From assembly GCA_044892525.1 (NCBI GenBank), contig CM097885.1, positions 8,186,001 through 8,250,000 of the forward strand: a DNA stretch of 64,000 nt, read 5' to 3'. The notes beneath the pieces were generated by a model. The model did not search any database. It was not told the DNA's origin and was given only the letters and a program-made list of their open reading frames with translations. The DNA comes from Schmidtea polychroa. Taxonomy: Eukaryota. Position numbers and translations under genes: made by a program. Of this stretch, positions 1 through 57,107 are shown one piece after another; positions within the stretch are counted from its first letter, which is position 1; each line of letters opens with the position of its first letter.

Positions 1-1357
1 AAATTTAAAACGATGCTCCGACTTTAATTAAAAGGTTTCTTTAGGATTCGGCCCATTATATAGTGCTTATTAGATCATTTATGGTACATGAATAAATGTA
101 ATTGTTTATTTCATTTTCACCTTGAAGTAAAACCATCATTTTTTATTCTTGTCCGTTTTTTTATTTGGGGGGACCGGGCCCTCCTGGGCCCCCCCGACGG
201 TACGGGTCTGGGGGCCTTTTTATAATTTTTTTTAAAGAAAAAGGTTAATTTGTTTCCTGCTGTTATATAGTTAAAATAATAGTTTAATTTCGAAAATAAT
301 ATTACATTTATTCATATATAAGAGTAATAAACATGAAGTACCATTCATAAATAAAAAAAACATTAATTTAGAAACATTTTCTTCTAGATTTTTTCTATGC
401 AAAATCTTCAACAGCAACTTTAGAAAGGTAATAATATATGAGATTTAATTAAATACTTCTTTACTTATATTACATAAATATAATAATCTGCAAATAATAA
501 AAAGATGTAATAAGTTTTGATAATAATAATACAAAATTTGTTAGCCTAAGGGTAAATCCAGGCCTGGGTATACATTGTTATTTTATTGACACATTAAAAA
601 GTTCATATATTCATATTTTAGGAGATTTATAATTTTATTTTATTAAACCAAGGAAAGGTACCAAATGCAATAGTTAAGAAAATCATTCAAAGAAGTGAGA
701 GTCCCCTACATATAGGTATGATTGTAAGGTAATTCTTCCATTTGGAAAGTGCACCTGTACATATCCACTTACCTCTTTCTATCTAAATTGCGGAAAAGAT
801 TATTTTCATAGCATTAAAGATATATTTGTAAAGACATCTTCGAAAGGTTAAATTTACTTTTCTCGCTCCCTTGAGTATTTTACATTCGGATAGAAGGTTA
901 AAACTATAATATATAATTAAATGTAGTTTGTTTATCGTAAATCGTAAAATTTAATGAGAAAGATAAATAATGCAGTTGAACATTGGAAATTGTCGGGTGT
1001 AAATATTTCAGTTCCCTTACATGTTTACCAGTACAACATTTCGTCATCTTGATTGATGGCATCAGAATATCTTATATGTATAAAATTTCGCATTTTATTA
1101 ATACAAATCGTATAAAATATATTCATTCTTGTCACCTGAGCCGGGTTCAATTGTATAAACTCAAATTGTAATATCCTGAGTGGATCTTCATTAATTTATC
1201 CAAGTGAAAATATTCTAACTATATTTTATTAATGAGCGTTATATTCATGTTAAAAGGTCTTCTTTGGAATTTTCTAGAAATTTAATTTACTCGACAGTAG
1301 AATTTCATTTTTATACATTTAAAATTCAATTATACATCATTGCTTTTATTTATTTAA

Positions 1358-1599
1358 CCTCTTAAGTGGTTTATTTCGTCAAACGAAATGCGCTTCTCAG
1401 CGGCGATTTTTGTTATCCACTAGCGTATATATACGTCTTGGGTATAGTGTTACAAAAAATAAAATAATATCTTATTGGATGATATTTATTAAGATAATAT
1501 GTTAACAAAAGTAATATTTATGATATATTTTTAACATATTTTGTCAATTTAGGTCAATTTAGGTGATGACATATATATCCGTCATAGCCACTTAAGAGG
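1358..1599. mobile_element. piggyBac-type non-autonomous element (MITE)
   Basis: Perfect 12-bp TIRs CCTCTTAAGTGG / CCACTTAAGAGG, flanked on both sides by TTAA (1354-1357, 1600-1603). Confidence 0.8.
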
Positions 1600-1613
1600 T
1601 TAATACCAATTTT

Positions 1614-2363
1614 GGATCATGTAAAAAAAAGACTCGGCGGGTCATTTATTTTGCATGATCGATTTAATTTATTTTTTAATAAATTAGCCATGAACTTTAA
1701 GAATGAATTAGAAAGAATAATTGTTATGAATGAAGAACAGCTGGTGTCGTGGTTCTTCAGCAACAATATTGTTAAGGATAGAGTTGATTGTGATACTTGT
1801 AAGGTATCCATGCCTCTTAAAAAGTGAAAACAAATGGTTGTGGTTTGAATGGAGATGCCATAATTATAAGTGTCTAAAATACCAAACAACTCTCAGCTTA
1901 AGGAAGCACAGTTCTCTATCAGATATCGTCATTCCTCTGCTATTGGTCACAATGTCTAATTGTAAAGTTTGCGAATGTATCCAGATTCAATATCAAAGAT
2001 TCGAAAGCGGTTTATATCTAAAATCGAGGAGTATTATGCTCGATTCCTGAATGCTGAATTTGAAGAACAAATTGAAGCTGAAAATAAAAAAGATGAAAGG
2101 ATTAAATGATGATGGTAGAAAGATGTTTGTTTGGGAATTTTCTTTCATAGATCATTTCAAATGCGATTCGTACAACAAAATGATTGAGTTACAGCGGTTA
2201 AGGACTGATTAAATTATTTGCATTTTATAGTTTTTAATTAAAAATTTAATTTAATTTGGAGAATTTGAAATTCGATTACTGAAAGCTTTAACTGAAGTTC
2301 TGAAACTAAAAAGGGGATATATGTGTGCGATATTTTTTAGGGGTCATTATTTTTACATGATCC
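1614..2363 (+). mobile_element. Merlin (IS1016/ISXO2-like) DNA transposon, internally deleted
   Basis: TIRs GGATCATGTAAAAA / TTTTTACATGATCC and an 8-bp TSD (CCAATTTT / CAAATTTT, 7/8). A broken ORF encodes a Merlin-type N-terminal Zn-finger pattern (DCDTCKVSMPLKK ... EWRCHNYKC..TLSLRKHS). Confidence 0.75.
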
Positions 2364-5116
2364 CAAATTTTCACAACTGGCTTTTTGCACTAACCCTTTC
2401 TGTGCCTTAGGTGTGTAACCGCGCTCTATATGTCAGTGCACATTAGGTCGACTATTCAAAATAAGCAAGTTAATGCGCTTCACTTTGTATTCATTTTGAT
2501 AGCAAAGATCGAATTTTTCGTGTAACATAAAAATATATTAGGAAAAGAGGCGCTATAAATAGCACCTTGTCTTAAGGCATTACATACTGTAAAGATTATT
2601 GATTTTTATCTCTCTATTTATAGCGTGTTTTATTTATTTTATTTTATTTATGTTTTTATTTAATTAATTTATAAAATAATTTTTCAAATATGTTTTTTAT
2701 TTTTATGGTTTTTATTAAGTCATGTGACAACCCTAACCTTTAAACCCTCTACTGTCTATTAAAAATTTTTTAACTCAAACCTTTTGTGTTTAAATGTTCT
2801 AGGGTCGTTGAAAAATTTGTCATTAACTCTTCCTTAAACGATTTCATGACTATTTTAATTCCTATTATCCGTGTTCCCATGACAAATATCATGGTGGTAA
2901 TGTATACAGTGGCTAAAAAAATTAATGAACAGGTAAGTTCCATTATTTGAACTAATCCTCTTTGCATTTTCATTTTCGTATTCATAACTGCCGATAGAAA
3001 ATCTTACGTAGCTTTATCATTCTGTATACCTTATTTGGATTATTGCAATTTTAAAGCCCTTTTTCACATGACCCTCCTTATCAAATGTTACAGTTTCCTT
3101 TCAAATATTTGAGAAGGAATTTGCTTTTATTTCTGGTTTTGATAATTTATTTCTATACCTATTCGATTAGGTTTTTATTATTTAAGAAAGTTTAATATTA
3201 TTGTCTTATCAGGATGTTATTGAAGTTCATGTCTTTCTGTCATTTATTTGTAAAATTCTAACTTTCCCTTGCTAATTTCATCTTACTAGAGCCGATCCTT
3301 AGACCCAGCCAGGTCCTTCAAACTGTCCTTACATCAGTGGATTACACTAAAGATTGATGAATTGTTCCCACCTGAAAGTTAACCATGTACCAATAGGTCA
3401 GTTGACCAGACGTGTCCAACTCAAGGAATTTTAGTTTCAAGTCTGCAACGTTTTATCTTCCGACCATCACTCAAATATTTTGGAATTCTGATGAAATACA
3501 TGATAAAAAAAAGAAAGACGAGCTGGATATTTATTGCAAAATATTTACCATAACATTGCTTACACATAAACAGAATTTAAGATAACACAATCAGAAAATG
3601 TTTAAAATAATTCACCATCGTAGGCGCTGAGTCATAAACGGGGAAAAGTTTCCACAATCATAAACGTTACATTGCGTAGAAAACTTTCCGTTAGTGAGTT
3701 TCAGTGGCTAGGATATTGGTTTGGGAGTCTGAATGTTACCTAGCACTCGTAAGAGTAAAATATTATTATATATATTAATAAATGATTATATCGTGCAACT
3801 TTGTATAATATATTATTTATTAATATAAAGGCGCCATTAAGATTTTCCCAGGGCGACATGAGATTTCACTATAATAATAATAAAATGGGAGAATTACCCA
3901 ATCAGAATATTCCTCACAACTATTGGGAGTTTCTAACTAATGGCTGTCGTCAATGTTTCCTAATGAAATATTTTATATTCTGTAAATGGGAGTAGAAATT
4001 CCTTGATAAATCGACTTCCGAAACATCTTTTTCTTTGTCTTTATACATTACCTGTTTCATAAATCAGGCGGTAGCGCTTGATTCATTTTCAAAGAATATT
4101 TGAAATGATTTTTATAAACATGTCATACAATTATTATACATGTTTTTAATATTTATTAATAATTATTATTTATCTCTAATAAGAATATTTAAACAAAAAT
4201 TGTTCTCGAGAATTCTCTAATAAAAAAAAAATAAAATAAAAAGTTTTTTTTAATTAAATTACTTTTTTTCTTCCCTTTTAAAATCATTCTACATCTCTGA
4301 CTAATAAGAGCTTTATAATATTTCATTTTATTATAAACCTGACATTTTAAATATATTATTTATGATATTTAATTATTACTGGCGTTTATATAATTGATTG
4401 TTTGCACTTATAAAACGAGAAATTGTAATAAATAAACTTATGACAAAAATCAAGAATTTTAAAAAATGAGTTGGATTTAACTGCTGACCAATCCGAAAAT
4501 AAAAATATCAACTCAGAGCAACCAAATTGTTAATGGAATGTTTACCATATCCGGTGATATGACGCACGAAGATCAAAAGAAACTAAAGATCGGATTAGAG
4601 ACAGAAAAATGAATGTTGACAAATGGACAGCGATTGACAAGCACATTTAATTGATTATTAGTGACCAAGACATTGTGGGGAAACGTCAGAGAAACAGAAA
4701 CAACAGCTTCACAAGTCAATACATTCACTATTGCAGAATCAAAGAATTGGCTGCTCTGGAACAAGAAGATGATCAAGTATTTGCAGAATTTGTAACTCGA
4801 TTACTGAAAGCTTTAACTGAAGTTCTGAAACTAAAAAAGGGATATATATGGTGATGAATAGACGCTCCTATAATATAAAATAAATAAATTTATATTATAG
4901 AAGCACCAACTTACCTATATTTATCACTCTGAATGTTAGGAAAATGAAAATGGGCCGACATAAATCCTTGCGAGCCAAGTTGAAAATTAGTGCATTACCA
5001 AAAACTAAAGAACATTTAAATAATTATTTATTTTAAACAAATTAATACATTATATAGGATCATAAAATATTACTAAATAATTTTTCTAGTCTTTTGCAAT
5101 TCGGATCCATGATAAC

Positions 5117-5240
5117 AGGTTCACTGACAAATCGTTCACCGACATTTGGTTCACGACGTTCGGTTACGCATTTTTTTGTTATCACTTTAAAATTATTAAA
5201 AACTCGTGAACTAAATGTCGTGATCCATTTGTCGTGATAA
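5117..5240. mobile_element. Small MITE-like remnant with inverted subterminal repeats
   Basis: Left GTTCAC/GACATTT-type repeats are mirrored by GTGAAC/AAATGTCGTGA repeats on the right. TSD not resolved. Confidence 0.4.
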
Positions 5241-6164
5241 CTACAATTCAGTCATTAATTACATCATCAAAATTTACGGAATTTTCTACCTCACTGTCTA
5301 TAAACACAATAACCAGAGATGTAAAACGATGTTGTATTTTGTTTGTTTGTCTAGTTCTACGTAAGATCATATGCTACGTACAAGCGATTTTCTAAAGGTA
5401 AAAGGGGGGCAGTATATAAAATTAACATGGTTAATTCGGGGAAGTACAACAGCAGAAAAAGCAATTGTATTTGTTAATTGTAGCGCAAAACCATATAAAG
5501 GTCAGGGCCGGGTTCGGGGGAACGCACTGACCACATCGCGCCGGCTTTGATTGCAAAATTGCACACTTTTCTCAAAACCTATTGAAATATCAGCCGGTAA
5601 AGCAAACACTAGCACGAATACGTAATTTCTGAGGGAAAAGGTAACTTATGCAAACTTACTGACGCGTTAGGGTGAGGTGAAAGATAAGGAGTGACAAATT
5701 GGAATATGAAATGTTGGTATTTCTCAATCTGATCGTGGGTCGTATTGTTCAAATGGGACTCAAAGGGTTACGGAACTTATTTATAGAATATATTATTGTC
5801 AGAAACCTCTGCTCGAATAACAAATTGCAATTTTGTGCGCTTTTCATTTATTAAGGAATATTTTTCTCTCAAATATTCTGTTTCCATCAATTTTTATGAT
5901 CCGCAGAGAATTTTAAACTCGCCGGTAATTTTAATTAGTAGTCTACATTTTTGCTCAATAATTCCTTAGATATATTTTCCATACTCAAATGGTAATTTGC
6001 AATTAAATTGAAATATTATTCCATTTTATAAATTTATTATTTATTACAAATTCAAAAACTGATTGTTTGAAGAAATATTAAAACAACAGATGCATATATT
6101 TGATATTAATATTAATGCAATTATTAGTTATATTTACGTAATATTGATATTATACATAAAGCTT

Positions 6165-6167
<3 letters not shown>

Positions 6168-6257
<90 letters not shown>
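6168..6257. repeat. (TA)n microsatellite
   Basis: Direct read. Similar tracts occur at 28957-29068 and 53312-53424. Confidence 0.97.
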
Positions 6258-6260
<3 letters not shown>

Positions 6261-6917
6261 CACTGACTAATGAATAATGTTCATCTATGTATTCATACAA
6301 ATCCTCTAGATCCTTAAGCTGAAATTTATCTTCGCAAATTAATTCCAAATTGAATAATTAAAGATTACAGGGCCTTGTTGAAGTGAAAAAGACATAGTAT
6401 TCTGAAATAGCATCTATATTTGACCACAAAGCATTAGTGAAATTATTAAGTGTCAGTATGAAATATCGTGAGAAATTTCAATGTAATATCATAGCCGCAG
6501 AAAGACATGTAGAAATGGTTATGGACAAAGTAACATTAGTTTACGACAAAGAACTGAATCCGGAAAATGTTTATTTCTTACTCGAAAAAATTCAGCACAC
6601 CATCTTTATCCTGCTAATAAGAAACTATATTATTATTTTTATTATCATAAGAAAAAAAAGAGAAAAACATTTTTACACCATTACTTTATCAGTTAAAAAC
6701 GCTAAAGGTAATTAGATGCACTTTTAAACAGTTTCTGTGTTTCGACTAATTTTTTAGTCCGCAGAGGTGATTATGATTTTTCATACGCCAAGTTCACAAG
6801 TTTACAGATTTTCTGTGACCAAGCTAATAAGCAAGTGATGTGATTTTCCGTGAACCAGATAAAGTATGCAATATTGTATACTTACCTGGCGCGAAGAGAA
6901 ATCATCGCGTCTCCTGC

Positions 6918-6959
6918 ATATTACTGATGAGAGCCAAAAGCTCGAAAGTAGTCTACTAT
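6918..6959 (+). ncRNA. Minimal type-I hammerhead ribozyme motif (canonical core)
   Basis: ATATTA-CTGATGA-GAGC(CAAAA)GCTC-GAAA-GTAG-TC-TACTAT. Intact CUGAUGA/GAAA core, 4-bp stem II, GUC site (cleavage after 6953), stem I 5/6 paired. Confidence 0.7.
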
Positions 6960-6998
6960 TGAGATTTGCACTAAGTATCGCAAAGCTTGTGCTGTCTA

Positions 6999-7509
<511 letters not shown>

Positions 7510-10239
7510 AATAAATAAATAACAAATTTTCGATTGCAAACTTGAAATAAAAAATGAAAGGTAATCGTAAATCAATATACACTTTTTATCTATTTAATCA
7601 TAAATAAATCATAGAAAGCACCTGACATCAATTAATTATAAAGAGTCCTCTGAAAGAAAACCCTCCCCTTTCATTGTTCTTTTTGTTTTGACTTCAATAA
7701 ACATGTAAAGTTGTTTTGACAAAGGAAATAATCAGCTAGAACTTCTTCACTAGTCGCACATGACTATTCAATAATTTCTTTCGCTTTTTTGTTGTTTTTG
7801 AAAATTTAAATTATTTTTATTTGTTTGTTTGAATGAGGTATTGTATTTTTATATGTTGTTAATGATTAAATAATGAACGTTGAATAATCATTAAAATGGG
7901 AAATTTGTTTATTGGAGAATGACTCCTAGAAGTTTGTTTTACTCGCAAAGTCATTTATAATTTCCTTGTCAATCAAGTTTCCAATGTTCGAAATTCTGTG
8001 TTTTAATGTCTATTTTATTATTATTGATTTTTCAATGAGAACTCTACGATTTCTTTTATGCTCAGCAGTTAATCAAAATTTTGAAAGTATTACTGGAGAA
8101 AAGTTATAAAATTGCAAGAAAACCATTAGTTTATTCCCTATATTTGTTGGATTTGACAAGTAGATGAGAAATTTCCTTCAACTTTGATAAGGCGGTGAAG
8201 ATATTTTATTGAAGCATCTTTCGGATGTATCCTAAAGCACGATCAAGAATTTAACAAAATACAAATCTAATAATACATCATGAATATTATTCAATTTTAA
8301 TAGATATTAATTTATTTATTATACAATGAGTAGAATGATTTCTCTTTCGTTCGCCTTTGATCAGTTTTTATTTTCATTTAACTTCATTTTGACTATGATC
8401 AATGTTTTTCTGATTATCATAAATTTAGAGAAATGCAATGCCGAAAATACAAATTAACGAAATTCTAAATTATTATTTATTATATATTGTTTTAATGCGT
8501 AACATTCTGTAAAACATCATCCTATCTATCAAGATATCAAGTTTAGAAAAGATTTGAAAATACTAAAATTATTAAAGTTCTGTGCTGACTATATCCTAAA
8601 TCTTCCCATAAAAAAATTAATAACATTTTTATATTTTCATTAGTAACTTTAATAGGTGTTCAGTTAATAAAATTTCTCCATTTTTTTCATTTTATAAATT
8701 TTAATTAAACTTTTAATTTAGCTTAGAGTTTTCACAAAAAATTATATATTTTAATTTTCACGTATTTATTATAAATAAAAATAAAATAAAATAATTTCTT
8801 AATTACAATTATGTAGCAATTAATATTCCGAACAAATCAAAGCCTATTTTAATTCTAAACTACAAAGGAAATTGATTTAAATAACTAATATTATTATTTA
8901 TTTAATTAATAAATTTAATCTCTTTATATTTTCAAAAGTGAGATAAAACAAAACAAAACTGTTTTAAAATTGTATTTATTTGGAAATTGCAAAACAAACA
9001 TACAATATTAAAAAAATAAATAAAATATATTAAATTTGGTCATTTGAAAATTTTTTAATTAATTTAATAGTTGGGGCACAAAAATAATAGTTTGGGAAAC
9101 TCTTGCTTAGACGATTGCAGGACAAACAGAATTTCTTCTAAAATTCATCGAATAATGGAGATTTATTTATTTTTCTAACCAATCACAATGAGACAATCAC
9201 AACATTTATCTAAATAAGTCTATTTTTATTATCACTCTGAAAATGTTTTGGAATTGAGGTGAATAGATTTAATATTTGAATGTTGCAATTAACAATTATT
9301 AAAATAATGGATGAAGACAGTCAACATTACCATGATGAAATGAATAATTATTATTTTAGTGGACGTCTAAAAATATAAATATATCAAAAGAAAAGATTTA
9401 TGATAGTAGTTATTGCTGGGGTCAGAGTTGTATATAACATAAAAAGAAATATAAAAAAATGCTGGTAATAGAAAAAATATTATAAAAATGTGTTTTGCTT
9501 TAAAAAAATTTTCAAACAAATAAAACTTGAAGTTCACGTTTTCATTTTCAAATCCAGTTTGCCTAATGCAAGCATCCACATTTTTTAGTGGCATACAGTC
9601 AGGTTCACCCGACCACAACAGTTTGTACAAAATAATATAAAAAAATAAAAGTTATATAGAAACACTCAAACTTACCTGTTTGTTGAATGTTAGTGTTTCA
9701 GGAATAATATTAAAATTAAGAAAGTGGTTGAAAAAATAATTTAACACACCAAAACAACACAGTAAAAATTTCATGTAAACTTTGATATGTAGAAATGTTG
9801 CATGGAATAATTACATTTAAAAATTTTATTATTGAAATATTTATAAAAAAATATGACTGGAAAGATTTTTAATAAAAATTTAGACAACTCTACTTTTAAT
9901 TTTCGAGAAAATGAAATTTTGTAAGATTTATTTTATAGTTTTAATAAATTTAATAACCTTTTGCAGTAATTCAAATATTTCTGAAATAACGGAGCCAGGT
10001 ACTTCTACAGTTTCATTAGAAGTTTGAAAAAAACTCGTAAATAATAAGTTTTTTAAAATTAAGTTAAAAAAATAATATTTTGATAGCATTTTACAAAAAG
10101 GCAAAATCAGAATTATCAAAACTTTGGAAAATGGAGAAGATTATTATGATTTTATAAATTCATTAGGAATTTTTTAAAGTATAGTCATAGGCATTATTTT
10201 ACAATTATAAAAAAAATATGGTCAAATAATAAAAATAAA

Positions 10240-10730
10240 GAGGTGGTGATAAACGAAGAAGCTCAAAAGAAGACGGAAATAAATTATCAGATTTCACTGA
10301 AAAGATGCGCAACTACTTGTTGCATCAAAATCAATAATTTCCCGATTTTTAAAGAATCAATTTTTTTAAAAAGTTAAAGCAGCATGATATTCGGATAGCG
10401 TCCTCGATATAAGAATGGAATATGTGACGCAATTTCTTGAAGAATCTTGACGTGTTAAAAATCTGGTATATATCGATGAATGTGGCTTCAACACAGGTAC
10501 CAGTTAAACTCTGGGGGAAAAGAAAAAAGGGAAATAAATTTATGAGACAGTTACACTAACACAGGGTCAAACATGTCACTGGTTCTTGCTATTTGTGTAA
10601 AAGAACCAATACATCAAAAATTAATTATAGGATCTTACAAAAAGGACACCTACTGACTTTATATATTTGAAGTCACAGCAAAATAAAATGGCACTGGATA
10701 TTGTCTCATTCCCGATAATATTCACGGAGG
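10240..10730 (+). pseudogene. IS630/Tc1-like DDE transposase remnant
   Basis: Frameshifted motifs RGGDKR (10240), LVYIDECGFN (10463), MSLVLAI...IIGSYKK and LIPDNIH. Confidence 0.7.
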
Positions 10731-12502
10731 ACTATTATCTCAAAATAATTTCATCTAACATTTCCTGCACCCAACAAAAAGCGTTTTCAGTGAAATCAAA
10801 TGTAGTATTATGAAAACAATATCAAAAGTAAATGGATTCAGTTCAATGTTTTTCCCAAGTATATTTAATGTTGTCAAGTAAGCTTTGAAGTGGGCTGAAT
10901 GAAAATATTTTTATGAAAACCTTAAAAACCTTTTTTGTGCAAATCGCATTTTTCCGAAATTTTTAAAAAAAATTGAAATTTTTGAAAATTATTTTTTATT
11001 TTTAGATAAATTATAGTGTAACTTAATTTAAGTCAAAATAAATCCAAAATTTAATGCATAAATTCATAAAAATGCTGAAAAAAAGTAATTAAATATAAAT
11101 TAAAATTGAAATTTTGTATTAAAGTAATATTTATGAGCTTGAATAATGCTCTCATAAAAATTCAAGCCTTTAAGTATAATTTTTGTGTTCTTCACGGCAA
11201 TTTCCAAAATTCATAGAAATAATAACAAAAATGATGATTTATAAAGTTGGTTTACACACTAACAGGTATTATAGATGTTATAAAACCACAGAAATGTATC
11301 GAATGTAAAATAAAAATGGTTTGAAAATTATGTAACATAAATCAAATAAATTATGATTTAAATCTTATTAATAAATTCTATTTAAATTTTCATAAAGTAA
11401 AATAAAATGTTGATTTAAAAAAGTTCTTTTTGAATTTCTAATAATTAATTAAGTTTTTAAATTTAATTAAATTGAAAATCTTATTGATTTCAAAAATAAT
11501 AAATTTATCAATCGACATTAAAAAATCAATTAATATCATCTTTAACTTCATTGTTTAAATTAATTAATAATTTGAATAATTTTAAAAAAGAATATTGAAT
11601 TAATGGGAAAAATATTATTTTTTTTGATATATGATAAAAACACATCAAAGTTAAAATTTTGTATTTAAAATTAAAAATGAAAATATTTTTTTTGAATTTT
11701 TCAAATCAATTAATGAAGCCAAGTTGAACTCGATTATTTTGTTAATAACCATTTCCGTCTCCCACAGTTATGCCAATGAAAATGAAAGCATTTACCAATT
11801 TTTATTTAGCAATAATATAAAATTAATTTAAATTAATTACAAATATTTTAATTTTAATTAGTAAATTAAGTATTTATTTTTTCCGAATACAATATTTCTT
11901 ATTTTTAGTATTTATTGAAATTTTAATTTTTTTTTAATTCGTCAGAGAGTATTTGAAATTTTTTTATAAATAAATCTGTTGTGAATTAATTACAAATAAT
12001 CAATAAATTGCACTCTTATCCATAAACTTTAATATAAGTCTGGATCACTCTTTTGAAAATATTGTGTTTTTCTTAATTCTTTGCTACGTCGATTTTCAAA
12101 ATCTTCTGAAGGATATTGCGTATTAATATTGTTAAACTTCCCTGAAGAAATTAAACAATTAAACAGAAATGTGTTGTAAGAGGTCTGTAAGTTTAAAAAG
12201 TGGTACAGATATGTTTAAAAGTTTTTAATTAAAAATATTATTAATATTGTAATAGGAGCAAATTTTTAAATTTTCTAAAATATACATCAAATATAAAGTC
12301 GGCTTGCTTAGATGTTTGAGAGTAAAAGAAAAATCCAAAATAATTATATCAATTGCTTTTTTATGTGGATTATATGCATATGTTATTGTCATTGCATTGA
12401 GTAATTTGTCATTATGAGGTACACAGTTTTGCAGTCTGTCATTTACAGAGTTAAATTTGGAATGGAATGTCTGTGGATTTTGAAATTTGAAACGCTACAT
12501 AA

Positions 12503-12599
<97 letters not shown>

Positions 12600-12608
12600 T
12601 ATTATTAC

Positions 12609-12683
<75 letters not shown>

Positions 12684-13503
12684 AATTAATTAGGAGTTAA
12701 AATTAAAATACTAAATTAAATTAGTTCATGATTAAAATTTGTAAAATTTTAATTGAAACTTAAATTATTTTAAGATATTAAAATTGAAATGATAATTGAA
12801 ATTTTAAAATAAAATAATTTTTAATAAAATTGAAATTCAAGTATGAATGCGATGGTATGTTGATATTTGGTTGAAATTAAAATTTAGAAAATGTCCCAAG
12901 AATATTTGTTTATATAATCAGATTTAATGAAATATAATTTTGGATTTAATAGTCTTATTAATTTATTTTGATGACAGAAGAATTAAATGTTATAGCTTCT
13001 AATAATTATTATTATTATTATTATTATTATTATTGTTTATAATATATTTCAATTATTTATTTTTTACATGAAAAGTTTGTGAAATATGTTTTTGTAATAG
13101 TTGATACCGGAAAAAACCAATGATTGTAATTGCGATAAAATTTGGCAGAATTTAGCAGAATTGACTTATCAATAGATATTTGGAATTTGATTCTGCTCAT
13201 TTATATTAATATTTCTGCTGTAGATATAATCTACTTTTTATTGACATATGTTTGAATTTGCGTTCTAAATTCGGAATATTAATGTCGAATATTTATGTTC
13301 ACTTAGAATGAATAATCTATAAATAATAATAAATATTTTATTATGAATTTATCAAAATTAATAATAATAATAAAAACAAAAAGATTGTTTCTTGGTAGCG
13401 GTATAAATTAGATATTAAACATAGATAAATGTTAACATAATCCTTTTTCTGCAAAATAGGTATTAAATGAAAAAATATCGATTATAAGTTATCATTTACT
13501 TGT

Positions 13504-13610
<107 letters not shown>

Positions 13611-13899
13611 CATACTAAATGATGTGTCAATAGAATAAATCTGATAAACCTAATAATTAATTTAAAAGTTTTTCTAAACTTTTTGTTTAATTTATCTGAA
13701 AAATTGTCAACCGTATTTCAAAGCCTAATGTGATTTATAGAAAATTAATTTTATTCAATAACTGGTGAGAAAATGCTCCTAGAAAATTTTAGGAAAAACT
13801 GAAATTCAATTTGAGGAGGAAAGAAAATTGGTGTCATTTAATAAGGACAGTCTGGAATTGCAGGAATTGGACATTTGCAAAACTTTTGAGGATATTTGA

Positions 13900-14150
13900 T
13901 TCGTTTATCAAATGGCATATTCGTTTTGTTTCACCATTTTGTGGTTTAATACTTTAATATGGCCAAAATTTATTATTAACTATTTGACCATAGCTGCATT
14001 GGAATACATGATTCCGGGAATTCTTTTCATATTATATTTGCCTATTATATTGATACCTTTTCTTCGAGGAATTCAATAATGCACGGATATAATTTCTTGA
14101 TTGAGATAATATATAAATATTTACATTAGGGTAATCATTAATGTTTTCAA
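13900..14150 (-). pseudogene. Possible decayed LTR-retrotransposon integrase fragment
   Basis: Minus-strand IPGIMYSNAA and NGETKRI resemble the integrase GxPxxIxSDNG and NGxxER motifs. Heavily degenerate. Confidence 0.3.
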
Positions 14151-15542
14151 TTTGGATAAAATAACAATCAAACATGAAATAATAACATAATGATCTAATT
14201 ATTAATTATCGGATGACATACACATGTGAAGTATCTATATAAACCAACGATCATATAAGAAAACGAAAGCCTTACATGAACCAAAGATACACGATATTGT
14301 AAGCAAATGAGATGTATAGCTATTTTAGGTTTTACAAACTAAGGGAAATTATTGTGTGAAATTGCAATTTAATTAAAATATGAAATAGGATAGAAATAAC
14401 AGATTTTCTGATATTAATGAACTCTGGAATCCTCTTTCTTATCCGATTGTTTTCATTGACCAATCATTATTCATGATTGACCAATATAATAAAACCCTTG
14501 ATTGCGCATTGATTTGATTTGATAATTCGACGGCAACTGCGTCATTCTAACGGCATTAATTGCATACAATTGAAATAATAATCTGAAAGGTTTGAATTTT
14601 ATAAATCAAAAATAAATTTATATCTTTTATAACTAGAAAAAGATAAAAAATAATAAGTGATTTAGAAAATTCCTCAAGGTTAATCATGTTTATTAGCATA
14701 TATATGTCCAGGTATAATGGATATAAGGCTGTGATATAAGAAAGGTATACTTATTACCAAGGTGTCTGCCCAGCCCGATCAAAATAATATAAGCTACAGT
14801 AAATGTGTTTATTGTCAAACGTTATTCTAAATCTAGAAAATAGGGAGAAAAAACATTTGATTTGCTAATTAACTTGTGTTAATAAGGTTCTCTTTTTCCA
14901 TACTTCTTACAATGTCTAAAAGATATAAATAGTAATAATTCAATAGGATGCGAGATGATTTTCTTTTCATAAATTTGTTCTCCATAACAACGACTCGGTG
15001 AATCCAATCTCAATTTATACTCAGAGAAAACTAATGAGAAAACATAAATAAAAAAAATATTCCGATTAAAACAAAAAAACACTTCACTTAATACTTGATT
15101 TCTTTAACTAATATTTTTTTGTGAATTATTAAAGTACTTTCTTAAATTTATTTTTATTGAAAAAAAAATCCTTATTACATTGAAATTCCTTAGCATTAAT
15201 TTTCTGTATTTTACTGCATCGTAATTGGATATTTCATGAACAACAGAAACTCCCCGAGAAGGCATCGGATAAAGCTCGGCGATTTTAACAATAATCACAC
15301 GGAGAACGTTGAAATTATTTATTCAATTTTGTTCCATTAACGTTTTAATCCATTAACGCTATTTTAAACTCATTAAAACAAACGACTAAATACCTTTTAG
15401 AAATTTAATTTTAAACAAATTTTATATATTTCATTTCGATGAAACTGTTATCGAATAATATTGATCATGAAATTTCACAGACGTCTGAGAATTTGTTACT
15501 AAAAATACCAGCCAATCATAATTAATCTAATGCAAAATTTGA

Positions 15543-16367
<825 letters not shown>

Positions 16368-17145
16368 TAATTAAAACAAATTATTTCGTTTTTTAAATAT
16401 TATTGGAAAAATCAATAAATTATTTAAAAAAATTTATAACAAAACTGTCAAATTCGATCAAATTATTAATTGAACCAATTTGATTTAAATTTTTCGGTGA
16501 AATTATGCGTGAATTAGATTTTGGTTTTAATAATACATTTTTCAACTTCTCTCTCTCTCTCTCTCTCTCGCTTATCTAATATCAAAGTTTTTCATCTTTT
16601 TATTCATCTCCTTTAAATTCTTTTCAATTTATTTCCTCGTGTTTAATGATTCATTTATTAAATGAAATTTTCTCTTCCACTTATCGATTTTCCTAATTAG
16701 AAATTGATTTAAATCAATGAATTAATAATAAATCAATTTTAGTTGAGATTATTTTTTGTTATGGATTGGGCTTGAATTTTGAAATCATTTGCAATGATTA
16801 ACTCCTAGATTTCCCATAATCGTAATTGAGTTATTGTTCAAATGGATTGATTGTTCATTTAAACTTGACAATTAAAACAAATAATTTTTATTGATTTATG
16901 AAAAGGCATGTAAGTAAACTATAGTTTAAAATATATTTTATCTTTTATTTATTTTCTGTCTCTACTAAAATATATTTTCATCTCTGTTAATTATTTCCTA
17001 CTTTCAATGACGTAATTGCTTTCCAGCATTCTTACTCATTTTATTCAAAATCAAAATGACAAAACAGTGACAGAAAAATGAGATAAGAGATTTCTAAAAA
17101 CACATAATAAAGAAAAAGCAACTTTAATTAATATACTACTACTAC

Positions 17146-17242
<97 letters not shown>

Positions 17243-18049
17243 CGTAATAAAATGTTCAATACTTAATTATTTTTTTTAAATATACAAAATAAAATTATTA
17301 ACTTTATATTCATTTTATTTTATATATTTTTGTTTTGAATCTGAAAATGCATTGTCAACAAAATACTTAAACAAATCCCTCATTTATTCATTGTTAAAAC
17401 TTAGAAATCTATATTTCACATTCAAAGAAAGTTACGACTGATAAATAAATTATTTATTCGGATTATTGTATTATACAAATAATTTAAAATTCATGTAAAT
17501 TACAATTGAAAATTTCAAAAAAATTTAGAAAAAAAATTTTGAAATAAAGGTTAAGCATGAAGTTTAGATATTTCAAATATGGTTAAGGAAGTGAAACTAA
17601 TAATATTGAAGCTAAATTGCAAAATACCAAAATGCATAATTATAAAATTTTCCATGCCAAAATGTGCAGCAAAACAATTTTTGTAACATTCCCATTCGCA
17701 ATTCGCATGTGACAGATACGTTTTTTGTGCTGGTGATATTTCAATTACTGTAATTAGTATTATAATTATTAAAAAATAATAAATATTACTATTATTGAAA
17801 TAGAAATTAATGAAACCGGCTATAGCTTATCACTTAAAACTTACTTATCAGAATTGTTACGTAATGGCAACAAGATAGTAAAATGAAATACCTATATAAT
17901 TGGGTGCTTAGTAAGATGGATGAAATGCTGTAAATGAACCGAAAGTTATAAATATTCCTCTGTTTATTCCGACACTTGACCGATATGCTATCTATAAATT
18001 CCAATAATTACACCCTCAGAAATTAATTGATAAAAATAATAAAATAACA

Positions 18050-18160
<111 letters not shown>

Positions 18161-18221
18161 ATTATTATATAAAACAATAAAGTGATAATTTAAGCCTTTT
18201 GATGCGAATAATGTATTTAAT

Positions 18222-18260
18222 GAAAAATTTTTCGACTATAAGATAGTCCTTATCAATCTG
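18222..18260 (-). ncRNA. Family-C hammerhead, older degenerate copy
   Basis: Reverse complement: CAGA-TTGATAA-G-GACTAT(CTT)ATAGTC-GAAA-AA-TT-TTTC. Cleavage site altered. Confidence 0.55.
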
Positions 18261-18447
18261 CAAGGAGAATTATTACTTAAATTATCACTTTATTGTTTTA
18301 AATAATAAATGCTGCTACCAAAAAATCATCACTTTATATTATTATTATTATTATTATTATTAAATGATGATTGCTTGGTAGCAGCATTTATTATTTAAAA
18401 CAATAAAATGATAATTTAAGCCTTTTGCTGCAAATAATGTATTTAAT

Positions 18448-18486
18448 GAAAGAATTTTCGACTATACGATAGTCCTTGTCAATCTC
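18448..18486 (-). ncRNA. Family-C U3-A8 minimal hammerhead in the PLE terminal repeat (left arm)
   Basis: Reverse complement: GAGA-TTGACAA-G-GACTAT(CGT)ATAGTC-GAAA-AT-TC-TTTC. Confidence 0.75.
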
Positions 18487-18893
18487 CTGGAATTTAGCAA
18501 TGTTCTTCTTCAAAATACCCTTCAATCTTTCTTTTATTTCCTTTCTCTTAATTCTCATTGGTTGTAAATATAATGAATTGTTTTACTAAAAACTTTTAAA
18601 ATTTTTTTTTATAATTTTTACATTTAAAATTTCAAAATGACACAAACTAAAATTTTTAAATTTTTTACAGCTTCTGTAATTAGCTTCTAGAAGCCTAATA
18701 AAATATTTGAAAATATTTTAAATAAAGCCTCCAATAACTACTTATATATGCTATTTAAATATTTCAATAAATGTGTCAATTTTGATTTTCAAACCCTATT
18801 TTTTAAAATTTTTTTCTATATTATTCTAATTATTACTTTTTAATTTATTCTTATTTTTTTAATTTCTTTGTATATTGTCAGTTATTCTCAAAG

Positions 18894-20339
18894 TCAATGA
18901 CAACAGATCAAATTCATGATTTCATTGATTTCTTCTTTAGTGTTGATCTTTGGCTGTCTGTTTATTATGAGAATTGCTTCTTTGATTCTGACATTTTTCT
19001 TTTGGATGTTTCCATTAGCTATGATTTCTATTGAAATATTTTTTCTTTCCTCTGTTGGCTGACACTGCCGGAGATGTCTGCCCAACGAGGATGTTCCACC
19101 AGGATCTAGATGTTCTTTAACTCTTTGGTGCAATGTCCTGAGGGTACTTCCAATGTAGATTTCATTGCATACATTGCACGTGATGCAATAGACGATGTTT
19201 TTTCTAAAGCACATATCTTTCGGTGTCTGGCAGTTTTTCATTGTGCAATTGTTTTCTCTATTTATGTTGCCTGCCAGAGCCCTTCTCAATGTCCAAGATT
19301 TATGTGCTATCCGAATTGGAAGACCGGTACGTTTAAGTTCTTTCAGGATCTTGAAGTCGAGTATGTCACTGATGAATGGGATATTCAGATAGAAATATTT
19401 CTGATTCTTTTGTGTTAATTCCCTAGATCTTCTTGGGGTAGAATTCATTTTTTCAATGTCCTCACCTTGGTATCCGTTTCGGTGTAGGATTTTATTGAAA
19501 TTTGATTGCTCTTTAAAGTTTTCGTTTTTCTCCGTGCATCGATTGGCTATTCTTCGTTTCTCGTTTCTTATGACATTTACTTTCTGTAAGTATGGAAGCG
19601 CTGATCTTTGGTGCATAAATATTTCTTTGCGAGCTGGTTTTCTGTAGAACCCGTATGTTGGAGTATTTTCTTCTATTTTGATTCTCAAATCCAATAAATT
19701 GAGGGATCCATCTTCTTCCGGATATTCGATTTCGAACTTAATATCTTGATGAGCCGCATTGAATGAATGAAATATTTCCTCCGCTTCTTTTCTGTTTTTG
19801 GTCAAGATGAAGATATCATCTACATATCTTGCATAGAAACCGATGGGTTGTATGGTCCTCAGTGTCTGTCGTTCGAGGTTATCCATAAAGATGATTGCTA
19901 GCAGTCCTGATATGCTAGAACCCATAGGCAGACCTTTAACTTGTTTATAGATATTTTGTTTAAAGGTAAAATAGGTGTTCTCGAGGATAACAGTAAGTAG
20001 TTTGGTGATATTCTCGGTATTCATTTCCTTTATTAACAAGTTGCTTTCTCTTAATTTCTTTTCTAAACATTGAATAGCCTCTGTTGGTTCGATAGATGTG
20101 TATAGTGATACGACATCAAGACTAAATGGGTATTGGAATTCTCTATGACAAGTCATGTTATTATTTAGTCTTGTCATGAGGCAGTCGCTGCTTTGAAGAT
20201 GGTGTGGTATCGTGTCCAATAAAGGTTTCAAGATCTTTGCAAGGAGCCAACTTGTTTTAGTTGTTGGTCCATTTTTGTTGGACACTATAGGTCTAATTTT
20301 GATACCAGGACCCTCTTTGTGAGTTTTAATTAGGTGGTA
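18894..20339 (-). CDS. PLE reverse transcriptase + GIY-YIG endonuclease, 5'-truncated copy
   Basis: Open frame with SLDVVSLYT, GLPMGSSIS, YARYVDDIF, NGY thumb and IVYCITCNVCNEIYIGST-R-R-EH. The frame runs to the inversion junction. Confidence 0.93.
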   Translation of the reverse strand, partial: YHLIKTHKEGPGIKIRPIVSNKNGPTTKTSWLLAKILKPLLDTIPHHLQSSDCLMTRLNNNMTCHREFQYPFSLDVVSLYTSIEPTEAIQCLEKKLRESNLLIKEMNTENITKLLTVILENTYFTFKQNIYKQVKGLPMGSSISGLLAIIFMDNLERQTLRTIQPIGFYARYVDDIFILTKNRKEAEEIFHSFNAAHQDIKFEIEYPEEDGSLNLLDLRIKIEENTPTYGFYRKPARKEIFMHQRSALPYLQKVNVIRNEKRRIANRCTEKNENFKEQSNFNKILHRNGYQGEDIEKMNSTPRRSRELTQKNQKYFYLNIPFISDILDFKILKELKRTGLPIRIAHKSWTLRRALAGNINRENNCTMKNCQTPKDMCFRKNIVYCITCNVCNEIYIGSTLRTLHQRVKEHLDPGGTSSLGRHLRQCQPTEERKNISIEIIANGNIQKKNVRIKEAILIINRQPKINTKEEINEIMNLICCH

Positions 20340-22070
20340 ACGAAAGACGAACAGGCAATATTAAAATCCCTTAAAAAGAAACCGTACGTTTACTTACCAA
20401 GTGACAAGGGGGGAGAATTTTGCATTATAGAGAAGAATCGTTACTGTGAAGCTGGTTACGAACACCTCGGCAACATCGAAACATACAAGAAAGTCAGCCG
20501 CATGTCACCAAACACCATCGAAATGAAGATCAACAAAGTATGGAAAGCCATAGCTTTGGAAATGAGGCTCAACAACAGAATAACCAACAGCTTCGTCACA
20601 AAAAATTCTGATCTTCCTAACTTCTACCACCTAATTAAAACTCACAAAGAGGGTCCTGGTATCAAAATTAGACCTATAGTGTCCAACAAAAATGGACCAA
20701 CAACTAAAACAAGTTGGCTCCTTGCAAAGATCTTGAAACCTTTATTGGACACGATACCACACCATCTTCAAAGCAGCGACTGCCTCATGACAAGACTAAA
20801 TAATAACATGACTTGTCATAGAGAATTCCAATACCCATTTAGTCTTGATGTCGTATCACTATACACATCTATCGAACCAACAGAGGCTATTCAATGTTTA
20901 GAAAAGAAATTAAGAGAAAGCAACTTGTTAATAAAGGAAATGAATACCGAGAATATCACCAAACTACTTACTGTTATCCTCGAGAACACCTATTTTGCCT
21001 TTGAACAAAATATCTATAAACAAGTTAAAGGTCTGCCTATGGGTTCTAGCATATCAGGACTGCTAGCAATCATCTTTATGGATAACCTCGAACGACAGAC
21101 ACTGAGGACCATACAACCCATCGGTTTCTATGCAAGATATGTAGATGATATCTTCATCTTGACCAAAAACAGAAAAGAAGCGGAGGAAATATTTCATTCA
21201 TTCAATGCGGCTCATCAAGATATTAAGTTCGAAATCGAATATCCGGAAGAAGATGGATCCCTCAATTTATTGGATTTGAGAATCAAAATAGAAGAAAATA
21301 CTCCAACATACGGGTTCTACAGAAAACCAGCTCGCAAAGAAATATTTATGCACCAAAGATCAGCGCTTCCATACTTACAGAAAGTAAATGTCATAAGAAA
21401 CGAGAAACGAAGAATAGCCAATCGATGCACTGAGAAAAACGAAAACTTTAAAGAGCAATCAAATTTCAATAAAATCCTACACCGAAACGGATACCAAGGT
21501 GAGGACATTGAAAAAATGAATTCTACCCCAAGAAGATCTAGGGAATTAACACAAAAGAATCAGAAATATTTCTATCTGAATATCCCATTCATCAGTGACA
21601 TACTCGACTTCAAGATCCTGAAAGAACTTAAACGTACCGGTCTTCCAATTCGGATAGCACATAAATCTTGGACATTGAGAAGGGCTCTGGCAGGCAACAT
21701 AAATAGAGAAAACAATTGCACAATGAAAAACTGCCAGACACCGAAAGATATGTGCTTTAGAAAAAACATCGTCTATTGCATCACGTGCAATGTATGCAAT
21801 GAAATCTACATTGGAAGTACCCTCAGGACATTGCACCAAAGAGTTAAAGAACATCTAGATCCTGGTGGAACATCCTCGTTGGGCAGACATCTCCGGCAGT
21901 GTCAGCCAACAGAGGAAAGAAAAAATATTTCAATAGAAATCATAGCTAATGGAAACATCCAAAAGAAAAATGTCAGAATCAAAGAAGCAATTCTCATAAT
22001 AAACAGACAGCCAAAGATCAACACTAAAGAAGAAATCAATGAAATCATGAATTTGATCTGTTGTCATTGA
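20340..22070 (+). CDS. PLE reverse transcriptase + GIY-YIG endonuclease, longer 5'-truncated copy
   Basis: About 577 uninterrupted codons: SDKGG, LIKTHK, RPIVS, YVDD, Cys-rich linker, VY..YIG, EAILI...PKIN. The GTG at 20334 belongs to the opposite arm, so it is not a true start. Confidence 0.95.
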   Translation, partial: TKDEQAILKSLKKKPYVYLPSDKGGEFCIIEKNRYCEAGYEHLGNIETYKKVSRMSPNTIEMKINKVWKAIALEMRLNNRITNSFVTKNSDLPNFYHLIKTHKEGPGIKIRPIVSNKNGPTTKTSWLLAKILKPLLDTIPHHLQSSDCLMTRLNNNMTCHREFQYPFSLDVVSLYTSIEPTEAIQCLEKKLRESNLLIKEMNTENITKLLTVILENTYFAFEQNIYKQVKGLPMGSSISGLLAIIFMDNLERQTLRTIQPIGFYARYVDDIFILTKNRKEAEEIFHSFNAAHQDIKFEIEYPEEDGSLNLLDLRIKIEENTPTYGFYRKPARKEIFMHQRSALPYLQKVNVIRNEKRRIANRCTEKNENFKEQSNFNKILHRNGYQGEDIEKMNSTPRRSRELTQKNQKYFYLNIPFISDILDFKILKELKRTGLPIRIAHKSWTLRRALAGNINRENNCTMKNCQTPKDMCFRKNIVYCITCNVCNEIYIGSTLRTLHQRVKEHLDPGGTSSLGRHLRQCQPTEERKNISIEIIANGNIQKKNVRIKEAILIINRQPKINTKEEINEIMNLICCH

Positions 22071-22475
22071 CTTTGAGAATAACTGACAATATACAAAGAA
22101 ATTAAAAAAATAAGAATAAATTAAAAAGTAATAATTAGAATAATATAGAAAAAAATTTTAAAAAATAGGGTTTGAAAATCAAAATTGACACATTTATTGA
22201 AATATTTAAATAGCATATATAAGTAGTTATTGGAGGCTTTATTTAAAATATTTTCAAATATTTTATTAGGCTTCTAGAAGCTAATTATAGAAGCTGTAAA
22301 AAATTTAAAAATTTTAGTTTGTGTCATTTTGAAATTTTAAATGTAAAAATTATAAAAAAATTTTAAAAGTTTTTAGTAAAACAATTCATTATATTTACAA
22401 CCAATGAGAATTAAGAGAAAGGAAATAAAAGAAAGATCGAAGGGTATTTTGAAGAAGAACATTGCTAAATTCCAG

Positions 22476-22514
22476 GAGATTGACAAGGACTATCGTATAG
22501 TCGAAAATTCTTTC
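22476..22514 (+). ncRNA. Family-C U3-A8 minimal hammerhead in the PLE terminal repeat (right arm)
   Basis: GAGA-TTGACAA-G-GACTAT(CGT)ATAGTC-GAAA-AT-TC-TTTC. 6-bp stem II, UUC site, predicted cleavage after 22510. Confidence 0.75.
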
Positions 22515-22561
22515 ATTAAATACATTATTTGCAGCAAAAGGCTTAAATTATCATTTTATTG

Positions 22562-22655
<94 letters not shown>

Positions 22656-25060: not shown

Positions 25061-25487
25061 TATAAGAACTTTTTTTTCAAATTTCACCACTGATTTCTTT
25101 TCCATTCCCATTGTATTTATTAAAAGGCTTGACTATTAATCAGTAAATATATCGATGTTTTTGATATATTTACTGATTCATAGTCAAGCTTTTTAATAAA
25201 TACAATTAATACAATTAATAACAATCACAAATAGGAAATATTATTTGTGTAATTAAAATATAATTAAAACAATAAATTTATTATAAAATATGAAATAAAT
25301 TTATTTTTCCCCAACAACAATTGGTAAATCCAATAATGATCAAATTCACTTGAAAAAAGGCAGTGCCGAAAATTCGTGAGTATCAACAAACATCGATATA
25401 TTACTGATTTATAGTCTTCAAGATCTCTTTTTAATAAATTCAATGAAAAAAATATTCAGTGGTGAAATTGGAAAAAAAGTTCTTATA
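25061..25487. mobile_element. PLE family-A terminal repeats: minus copy with snap-back (25061-25206) and plus copy (~25230-25487)
   Basis: Dispersed repeat with further copies at 7091, 28395, 32497, 35433, 43243, 55639, 57113, 57705 and 63925. Linked to a GIY-YIG remnant at 57465-57680. Confidence 0.8.
25344..25381 (+). ncRNA. Family-A U3-A8 minimal hammerhead
   Basis: ATTCAC-TTGAAAA-AA-GGC(AGT)GCC-GAAA-AT-TC-GTGAGT. 6-bp stem I, predicted cleavage after 25375. Confidence 0.7.

Positions 25488-28366: not shown

Positions 28367-28394
<28 letters not shown>

Positions 28395-28397
<3 letters not shown>

Positions 28398-57018: not shown

Positions 57019-57107
<89 letters not shown>

What the first reader, a model, noticed from the sequence alone, without database searches (positions are those of the whole stretch)
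6795..7000. ~200-nt highly base-paired, hammerhead-bearing non-coding element (retrozyme-like)
Seen: a canonical HHR core at 6924-6953, unrelated to families A-C. It is preceded by a ~100-nt imperfect rod-like hairpin at 6825-6923 (TAATAAGCA..GTGATTTT..CCAG..AAGTATGCAA / TTGTATACTT..CTGG..GAAATCAT..TGCATATTA, with several G-U pairs). The unit is closed by CACAAG(6795)/CTTGTG(6986) and ends at a (TTA)n tract. The rod sequesters the 5' strand of stem I, so it is an alternative inactive fold. Established: metazoan non-LTR retrozymes are short non-coding type-I-HHR repeats that give structured circular RNAs and are thought to be mobilised by PLEs. Inference: a monomer of such a non-autonomous ribozyme retroelement, possibly an undescribed family. 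GAAAGTAGTC is one change from palindromic GAAACTAGTC.
Basis: partly seen in the sequence, partly recalled or inferred. Interest (0 to 1): 0.72.

Follow-up and report, generated by a model that had tools for sequence, protein, structure and literature searches.

The report
Decayed copy of hammerhead retrozyme family
This is a lone, mutated copy of a very abundant, roughly 370-base non-coding repeat that carries a hammerhead (self-cutting RNA) motif in an AT-rich invertebrate; the repeat family is likely a "retrozyme" of a kind already known from many animals, and this particular copy is predicted to be inactive.

Summary
The hammerhead core (6924-6953) and the hairpin are real: a strict descriptor hits 1 of 200 shuffles, and the fold has z -3.67. 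The element is longer than reported, about 6652-7003.

Public contigs of the same organism show a family of at least hundreds, probably thousands, of copies. A few contigs join the unit's end to its start, giving a period of about 360-380 nt.

Family-majority letters complete a canonical type I hammerhead: helix I 6 bp, helix II 4 bp, helix III 1-2 bp with a palindromic loop. This copy differs at 6921 and 6948, which breaks helices I and III. It holds one hammerhead, so it could not release a unit-length circle.

The long rod is partly peculiar to this copy. Four of its pairs are mismatches with the majority letters, and the family gains a competing 8-bp GAAA hairpin. A weaker rod in the family is not excluded.

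Verdict: new member of a known kind (metazoan non-LTR retrozyme). Cleavage, expression and circles are not shown, and the host taxon is unresolved. This scan noted the same kind on other DNA (sea squirts), not this family.

The parts
6652..7003 (+). Whole solo copy of the repeat family: about one unit, lacking ~20 letters of the end-to-start bridge and 17 letters of a hairpin apex
   Evidence: depth rises from 383 (6640-6664) to 33,638 (6665-6689) in X1; contigs span 6663-6809/6846; joint 7003->6671 with 31 letters between. The left edge is placed at the A-run at 6652 by likeness to the end of that bridge (inference). Fold z -3.9 against 60 shuffles.
6918..6923 (+). Hammerhead helix I, 5' strand; T6921 mismatches C6956 in this copy
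   Evidence: G at 6921 in 98.5/93.0/98.4% of depth in X1/X2/X5
6924..6930 (+). Catalytic core CUGAUGA
6931..6943 (+). Helix II, 4 bp, G10.1-C11.1 at the base, loop CAAAA
   Evidence: Pair probabilities 0.93
6944..6953 (+). GAAA core, helix III and GUC triplet (predicted cut after C6953); G6948 spoils the palindrome in this copy
   Evidence: C at 6948 in 99.0/96.6/99.2% of depth
6954..6970 (+). Helix I 3' strand (6954-6959), bulge (6960-6966) and distal TGCA (6967-6970), which can pair with 6915-6918
   Evidence: Complementarity listed; pair probability 0.0 in this copy's ensemble
6890..6909 (+). GAAA-capped hairpin: 7 of 8 pairs in this copy, 8 of 8 with the majority T at 6904; competes with the rod
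   Evidence: -7.4 kcal/mol alone, z -3.03; probability 0.02 within this copy; 6904 T in 99.6/98.8/99.8%, and 6908 T (keeps a G-U pair) in 9-24%
6855..6889 (+). Inner hairpin, shared by both folds; this copy lacks 17 apex letters that lie between two GCAATA repeats in family copies
   Evidence: -12.3, z -4.75; loose ends at 6873 in 29/39/44 contigs of X1/X2/X5 (table 7); majority G at 6859 adds a pair with C6885
6825..6923 (+).
7001..7090 (+). (TTA)n tract at the 3' junction; likely the insertion target, not a tail of the unit; shared with a neighbouring repeat
   Evidence: 36 tracts of 8 or more units, 4.1% of the window; table 5c

Best explanation
The stretch 6652-7003 is a lone, decayed copy of a high-copy, ~360-380-base non-coding repeat with a type I hammerhead motif, most likely a non-LTR retrozyme family, and this copy is predicted to be inactive. 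SHOWN: the repeat family, its majority hammerhead letters, end-to-start joints in a few contigs, and the defects of this copy. INFERRED from the published model: tandem copies would be transcribed by read-through. Neighbouring hammerheads would pair through their palindromic helix III (double hammerhead) and cut after GUC. Unit-length RNAs would be circularised by a host ligase, copied by a Penelope-like reverse transcriptase and inserted at new sites, here probably at a (TTA)n tract. This locus would be such an offspring. It has one hammerhead, so it could not release a monomer, and it has since lost the helix I pair 6921-6956, the helix III palindrome and 17 apex letters. The strong rod seen here is in part a by-product of that decay.
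For:: 1983, 5510 and 2480 contigs laid in X1, X2 and X5. Summed depth at 6915-6939 over the unique flank is 14,948, 14,196 and 24,011; the floor is 482, 458 and 775 if every 31-letter word were counted as its own contig. The tool warns that summed depth is no copy number, so only the order of size is claimed. Majority letters 6921 G and 6948 C complete helix I (6 bp) and a palindromic helix III, the architecture that PMC4209133 calls canonical and dimer-dependent (passages). End-to-start joints: 7003->6671 (+31 letters; one contig each in X1 and X2) and 6999->6672 (+32 letters; X2). Their bridges share a 10-letter stretch and an A-run end (tables 5 and 5c), giving 364 and 360 nt, or about 380 with the 17 apex letters. 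Retrozyme units of 150-450 bp, and 350-390 bp in mussel, are in PMC7229834. GC is low, and no ORF has a Pfam match. An RT + GIY-YIG Penelope-like ORF lies in the same window. A hammerhead-open fold of this copy costs 14.0-15.8 kcal/mol over the minimum. The longer contig pieces listed differ from this copy at roughly 8-22% of letters (table 8, by inspection).
Against: No cleavage, transcript, circle or empty site is shown. The tandem joints among the displayed rows come from X1 and X2 only, which belong to one study and may include the window's own source sample. None is displayed for X5, and 15 joint rows were not shown. Depth is very uneven along the unit (6990-7003: 2,652; 6915-6939: 880,449 in X1). 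This may reflect this copy's divergence, or many partial, non-tandem copies. Majority letters are read position by position, not on single molecules, and 35 rows were hidden. The Penelope-like copy in the window shares no sequence with the element and has no hammerhead core with a stem, so no partner element is identified. No target-site duplication could be defined. PMC7229834 and PMC7761336 say most invertebrate retrozyme hammerheads have a stable helix III and cut as monomers; this family's helix III is the short palindromic type.
Confidence: 0.75

Rival explanations
1. The unit is a solo pseudo-LTR or fragment of an autonomous hammerhead-bearing Penelope-like element elsewhere in the genome, not a free non-autonomous repeat.
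For: PLE pseudo-LTRs carry palindromic type I hammerheads and occur in tandem (PMC6765202; PMC4209133). A 2026 preprint finds retrozymes related to pLTRs, so the two grade into each other (10.64898/2026.07.22.740005). PLEs favour microsatellites (PMC8557442), and this copy ends on one.
Against: The PLE minimal hammerheads described for S. mansoni have helix II of 7-8 bp, helix I of 4-5 bp and an extra base after position 9. Here the helices are 4 and 6 bp with no extra base. End-to-start joints give a short period. There is no similarity to the PLE in the window.
Confidence: 0.12
2. The family is a SINE-like or satellite-type hammerhead repeat (like schistosome SM-alpha or W-elements) that gives linear RNAs or spreads mainly at the DNA level, without a circular intermediate.
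For: No circle is shown. Uneven depth along the unit fits many partial copies. Schistosome repeats carry type I hammerheads with short stem III and many decayed copies (PMC8490949).
Against: ARAGORN or a pol III promoter test was not run, but Rfam found no tRNA-like match in bases 1-20000 at E up to 5. All three animal type I repeat systems tested in PMC7229834 gave circles.
Confidence: 0.08
3. The rod is a functional switch, either kept across the family to block the hammerhead or selected at this locus as a hairpin upstream of the ELAV-like gene.
For: The rod is strong here (z -5.40). The family letters still allow its inner stem, a 6-bp middle stem (6842-6847 with 6898-6903; C at 6847 read from loose ends) and 7 of 9 outer pairs. 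TT at 6829-6830 (59-76% of depth) creates a second copy of the hexamer of the distal helix I strand. The left junction of the insertion is also present in a diverged haplotype from another study (X5 record 17).
Against: Pairs 6827-6921, 6829-6919, 6844-6904 and 6849-6893 are Watson-Crick here but mismatched with majority letters. The majority T at 6904 completes a GC-rich 8-bp GAAA hairpin that uses the rod's 3' arm. The comparison leans against the rod by construction, since the fold was fitted to this copy, and the left arm is covered by only 2-5% of the peak depth.
Confidence: 0.05

Closest known systems
Metazoan non-LTR retrozymes (Cervera and de la Pena 2020, PMC7229834; parts 2-4 of 6 read, supplement not readable)
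   Same: Non-coding unit with a type I hammerhead, low GC, unit of about 360-380 nt (mussel 350-390, axolotl 330/350), high copy number, end-to-start joints, a PLE in the same genome.
   Different: Different host and sequence. Circles and cleavage are not shown. This locus is a solo, mutated copy.
Canonical metazoan type I hammerhead with palindromic helix III (Cervera and de la Pena 2014, PMC4209133, passages; axolotl HHR_Amex1 and newt satellite in PMC7229834)
   Same: With the family-majority letters: helix I 6 bp, helix II 4 bp, G10.1-C11.1, helix III 1-2 bp with a palindromic loop, predicted to need a dimer.
   Different: Found here in an invertebrate, where PMC7761336 (passages) says most motifs have a stable helix III. 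Loop 1-loop 2 contacts were not tested.
Retrozyme monomers as dispersed offspring (Li, Clavereau and Pollet 2026, bioRxiv 10.64898/2026.07.22.740005; parts 1-3 of 5 read)
   Same: Solo copies scattered through the genome, described as possibly unable to transpose. [quoted passage not shown]
   Different: That survey covers mostly vertebrates. No pLTR relative was found here.
PLE pseudo-LTR minimal hammerheads; schistosome SM-alpha and W-elements (PMC4209133, PMC8490949, passages)
   Same: Type I hammerhead with a very short helix III in a repeat family with many decayed copies.
   Different: Helix sizes match the canonical motif, not the PLE minimal motif. No link to an ORF was found. The text search found no paper with this motif as a ribozyme.

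Membership tests
Type I hammerhead ribozyme (this copy) | CUGANGA and GAAA core, NUH triplet, helix II | tested here: met
Type I hammerhead ribozyme (this copy) | Intact helix I and helix III, accessible in the fold | tested here: not met
   T-C at 6921-6956, G-G at 6948-6951, pair probabilities 0.0, open fold 14-16 kcal/mol higher
Type I hammerhead ribozyme (family majority) | Helix I 6 bp, helix II 4 bp, helix III 1-2 bp with palindromic loop | tested here: met
   6921 G in 93-98% and 6948 C in 97-99% of depth in three runs; letters unphased; definition
Type I hammerhead ribozyme | Self-cleavage | not testable with these tools
   Needs an in vitro assay
Rfam hammerhead families | Score at or above the gathering threshold | tested here: not met
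   0 hits; HH9 17.9 bits against 52, E 4.4
Metazoan non-LTR retrozyme | Multi-copy repeat | tested here: met
   1983-5510 contigs laid per run; depth ratio floor 458-775
Metazoan non-LTR retrozyme | Tandem units of 150-450 bp | tested here: inconclusive
   Joints give 360-364 nt (about 380 with the apex), but in a few contigs of one study. This locus itself is solo.
Metazoan non-LTR retrozyme | Non-coding, GC below 50% | tested here: met
   only a poly-Asn read-through of the (TTA)n tract and a 105-aa frame without Pfam match overlap the unit
Metazoan non-LTR retrozyme | Highly self-paired unit | tested here: met
   This copy: -89.0 kcal/mol, z -3.9 against 60 shuffles. Folded as a linear strand; the family unit was not folded.
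Metazoan non-LTR retrozyme | Covariation of the fold across copies | tested here: inconclusive
   Only one-sided majority letters were available; no full-length family sequences could be fetched
Metazoan non-LTR retrozyme | Expressed as linear and circular unit-length RNA | not testable with these tools
   No RNA holder listed; X8 is only guessed to be RNA, and contigs cannot show circles
Metazoan non-LTR retrozyme | Co-occurrence with PLEs | tested here: met
   RT + GIY-YIG ORF at 20334-22070; mobilisation by it is not shown
PLE pseudo-LTR | Attached or homologous to a PLE ORF; minimal hammerhead with long helix II | tested here: inconclusive
   No similarity to the one PLE in the window, and helix sizes do not fit. 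Other PLE families were not searchable (no genome).

The most novel reading that the evidence does not exclude
The family is a dimer-dependent retrozyme whose RNA is bistable. A branched fold (inner hairpin, GAAA hairpin, open hammerhead) allows cutting in tandem transcripts. A rod that swaps in the duplicated hexamer at 6828-6833 and the 6-bp middle stem then locks the hammerhead in the finished circle. This copy would have drifted into the locked state. It would be a self-pairing block like that of viroids and plant retrozymes, in an animal retrozyme, where PMC7229834 predicts mostly open hammerheads and leaves the blocking mechanism open.
Probability: 0.12. Interest if true: 0.55.

Novelty: new member of a known kind. 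Interest (0 to 1): 0.25.

Why it matters
Modestly. It adds one more invertebrate lineage with a very abundant type I hammerhead repeat, with a short palindromic helix III and an apparently recent Penelope-like element in the same genome. That makes it a usable system for the proposed retrozyme-PLE partnership. It also shows that a striking fold at a single decayed copy can differ from the family's fold. It would matter more if full-length copies showed a conserved rod/branched switch.

Tried and rejected
Whole-genome search: no genome is held, so no family alignment, covariance model or covariation count could be made. No family-majority sequence was folded, so the family's preferred fold is argued pair by pair only.

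Collection scans: metagenome contigs gave 0 and 0; viral contigs 0 and 2; genome contigs 8. None of the 10 loci resembles the element beyond the core (one 17-nt A-rich hit, E 0.34).

Expression: no RNA holder listed. X8 (RNA guessed) laid 10 contigs, with family letters at 6904, 6921 and 6948 and no cover of 6265-6714. A trace of DNA would give the same for a repeat this abundant, so it is counted neither way.

A second register for helix III (6947-6950 with 6954-6957, cut after A6958; probability about 0.1) was rejected: it leaves no helix I and depends on the minority G6948.

Chance motif: rejected.

Host placement: the ELAV-like protein gave hits across animals and a long branch with no reliable place (31 of 120 listed rows used). 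One search gave no name. The Atlas taxa for the PLE ORF are mixed. My early guess of a planarian was not supported.

Literature: searches (listings) found no description tied to this family. The motif search gave one unrelated paper (listing only). The library lacks most subscription papers, Dfam and Repbase were not available, and the supplement of PMC7229834, which shows invertebrate retrozymes, could not be read. The family may therefore already be catalogued.

Full report
Setting. The window is AT-rich (GC 0.18-0.37 in 2-kb bins) and carries 36 (TTA/TAA)n tracts of 8 or more units. It holds exons of an ELAV-like RRM gene on the + strand between about 15.5 and 62.6 kb, and a Penelope-like element (RT + GIY-YIG) as an inverted pair at 18396-22566. 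The finding lies about 8.5 kb upstream of the first ELAV-like coding frame, on the same strand; whether it lies inside that transcript is unknown. The host is an animal whose taxon I could not place. No whole genome is held.

Observation. A strict descriptor hits 1 of 200 shuffled windows, a relaxed one 6%. 6795-7000 folds at -56.9 kcal/mol, z -3.67, and the rod alone at z -5.40. In this copy the rod holds the 5' strand of helix I (probabilities 0.67-0.95), helix II forms (0.93), and helices I and III do not (0.0). Forcing a hammerhead-open fold costs 14.0 kcal/mol on 6795-7000 and 15.8 on 6652-7003. Rfam does not recognise the motif at threshold (HH9 17.9 bits, E 4.4).

It is a high-copy repeat. 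Six of 15 listed public runs, from two studies, hold part of the stretch. I laid four of them on 6265-7003 at 80% likeness: 1983, 5510 and 2480 contigs in X1, X2 and X5, and 10 in X8. The flank 6315-6614 has flat single-locus depth (58.9, 203.6, 36.5). Depth jumps at 6665 and peaks at 6915-6939, over the hammerhead. The ratios are 14,948, 14,196 and 24,011; divided by 31 for overlap of short contigs they are 482, 458 and 775. The tool warns that summed depth is no copy number, so I claim only at least hundreds, probably thousands. X1 and X2 match the flank without differences and may be the window's source, so X5 is the independent run.

The unit is longer than reported. Contigs run from 6663 through 6809-6846 (table 8). 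Among the 15 of 30 joint rows shown, two go back from the end to the start: 7003->6671 with 31 letters between, and 6995->6697, one contig each in X1 and X2. Table 5c adds 6999->6672 with 32 letters between (X2) and three less regular joints. The two bridges share a 10-letter stretch and an A-run end, and the A-run resembles 6652-6664 of the window. This gives a period of 360-364 nt in this copy's coordinates. Loose ends at 6873 in 29, 39 and 44 contigs show 17 more letters in the hairpin apex, between two GCAATA repeats, so the unit is about 360-380 nt. The tandem evidence comes from few contigs and one study. The family continues past 7003 with letters other than (TTA)n, agreeing with the tract only through 7005, so the tract is a junction, not a tail. 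The window's PLE also ends on such a tract at 22564, which fits microsatellite targeting (PMC8557442, passages). The tract here also abuts an unrelated repeat at 7089, so it cannot be assigned.

The family hammerhead is complete; this copy's is not. G stands at 6921 in 93-98% of depth and C at 6948 in 97-99%. These letters give a 6-bp helix I and a 1-2-bp helix III with a palindromic loop. With the 4-bp helix II, this is the canonical metazoan type I motif, which needs a second copy nearby to cut well (PMC4209133, passages; axolotl data in PMC7229834). It is not the PLE minimal motif described for S. mansoni, which has a 7-8-bp helix II. That the two differences at 6921 and 6948 both fall on hammerhead pairs, and both are repaired in the majority, is the best evidence that the family's ribozyme is maintained and that this copy has decayed. 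The letters are unphased and 35 rows were hidden.

The rod. Six pairs in the fold of 6795-7000 touch a position where the majority differs. One becomes G-U (6795-6991), and five become mismatches: four in the rod (6827-6921, 6829-6919, 6844-6904, 6849-6893) and one in a small hairpin downstream (6948-6959). The majority T at 6904 (99%) turns 6890-6909 into a perfect 8-bp stem with a GAAA loop, and the common variant at 6908 keeps a G-U pair. This hairpin uses the rod's 3' arm and would free helix I, as predicted for most animal retrozymes (PMC7229834). Against my reading: the fold was fitted to this copy, so differences tend to break it, and the left arm is covered by only 2-5% of peak depth. 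The family letters still allow the inner stem (with an extra pair at 6859-6885), a 6-bp middle stem and 7 of 9 outer pairs. TT at 6829-6830 (59-76%) duplicates the hexamer of the distal helix I strand. I did not fold a family unit, so a bistable fold stays possible.

Mechanism. Shown: repeat family, majority motif, a few end-to-start joints, this copy's defects, and a PLE in the genome. Inferred from the published model (PMC7229834, parts 2-4 of 6; PMC7761336, passages): read-through transcription of tandem copies, double-hammerhead cleavage, ligation to circles, reverse transcription by a PLE enzyme, and insertion. This locus has one hammerhead, so one cut at most and no unit-length product. 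It fails the two-unit criterion for an active retrozyme in the 2026 preprint (parts 1-3 of 5). The insertion is not brand new: an X5 contig with 12 differences and 27 gaps over 6399-6767 crosses the left junction. The partner is unidentified: the window's PLE has no similarity to the element and no stem-bearing hammerhead core.

Novelty. The kind is known. No relative was found in three collections, in this scan's notes by sequence or place, or by motif text search. These collections hold little animal DNA, repeat libraries were not available, and the supplement of PMC7229834 could not be read, so 'undescribed family' is plausible but unproven. Earlier notes of this scan describe the same kind in sea squirts, and a similar decayed-copy pattern in a euglenid (unchecked, not used as support). 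Verdict: new member of a known kind, interest 0.25.

Noticed in passing
window 18396-22566: Penelope-like element as an inverted pair, 1944 nt at 99.6% identity, with an open 578-aa RT + GIY-YIG frame (20334-22070). It looks recent, ends on a (TTA)n tract at 22564, and has no hammerhead core with a stem.
   Followed up: partly
window 7089-7413; also 25042-25529, 28386-28590, 32490-32638, 35415-35543, 57041-57370: A separate dispersed repeat family with inverted ends, often bounded by (TTA/TAA)n tracts, MITE-like; one copy directly follows the tract after the hammerhead element.
   Followed up: partly
window 15543-62628: ELAV-like gene with Asn-rich segments and long introns; the protein is very divergent (branch 2.5 changes per column) and could not be placed in a phylum.
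   Followed up: partly
window 18302-18395: Near-perfect 94-nt hairpin with a (TTA)n loop abutting the left end of the PLE pair; sub-threshold Rfam miRNA match (34 bits against 90.8), probably a tiny inverted-repeat element.
   Followed up: no
window 6947 (X8 loose end): One contig in X8 continues after the GAAA core with a different helix III and helix I 3' strand but the same bulge and distal strand: possibly a second hammerhead subfamily.
   Followed up: no
window 6965-7003 and 6815-6864: Depth is 2-5% of the peak at 6840-6864 and lower still at the 3' end. Either this copy is very divergent there or many family copies are partial; unexplained.
   Followed up: partly
window 1730-2050: 106-aa frame with a Cys-rich motif and no Pfam match, within what may be a decayed transposon; 2254-2325 recurs at 4779-4850 (93%).
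   Followed up: no
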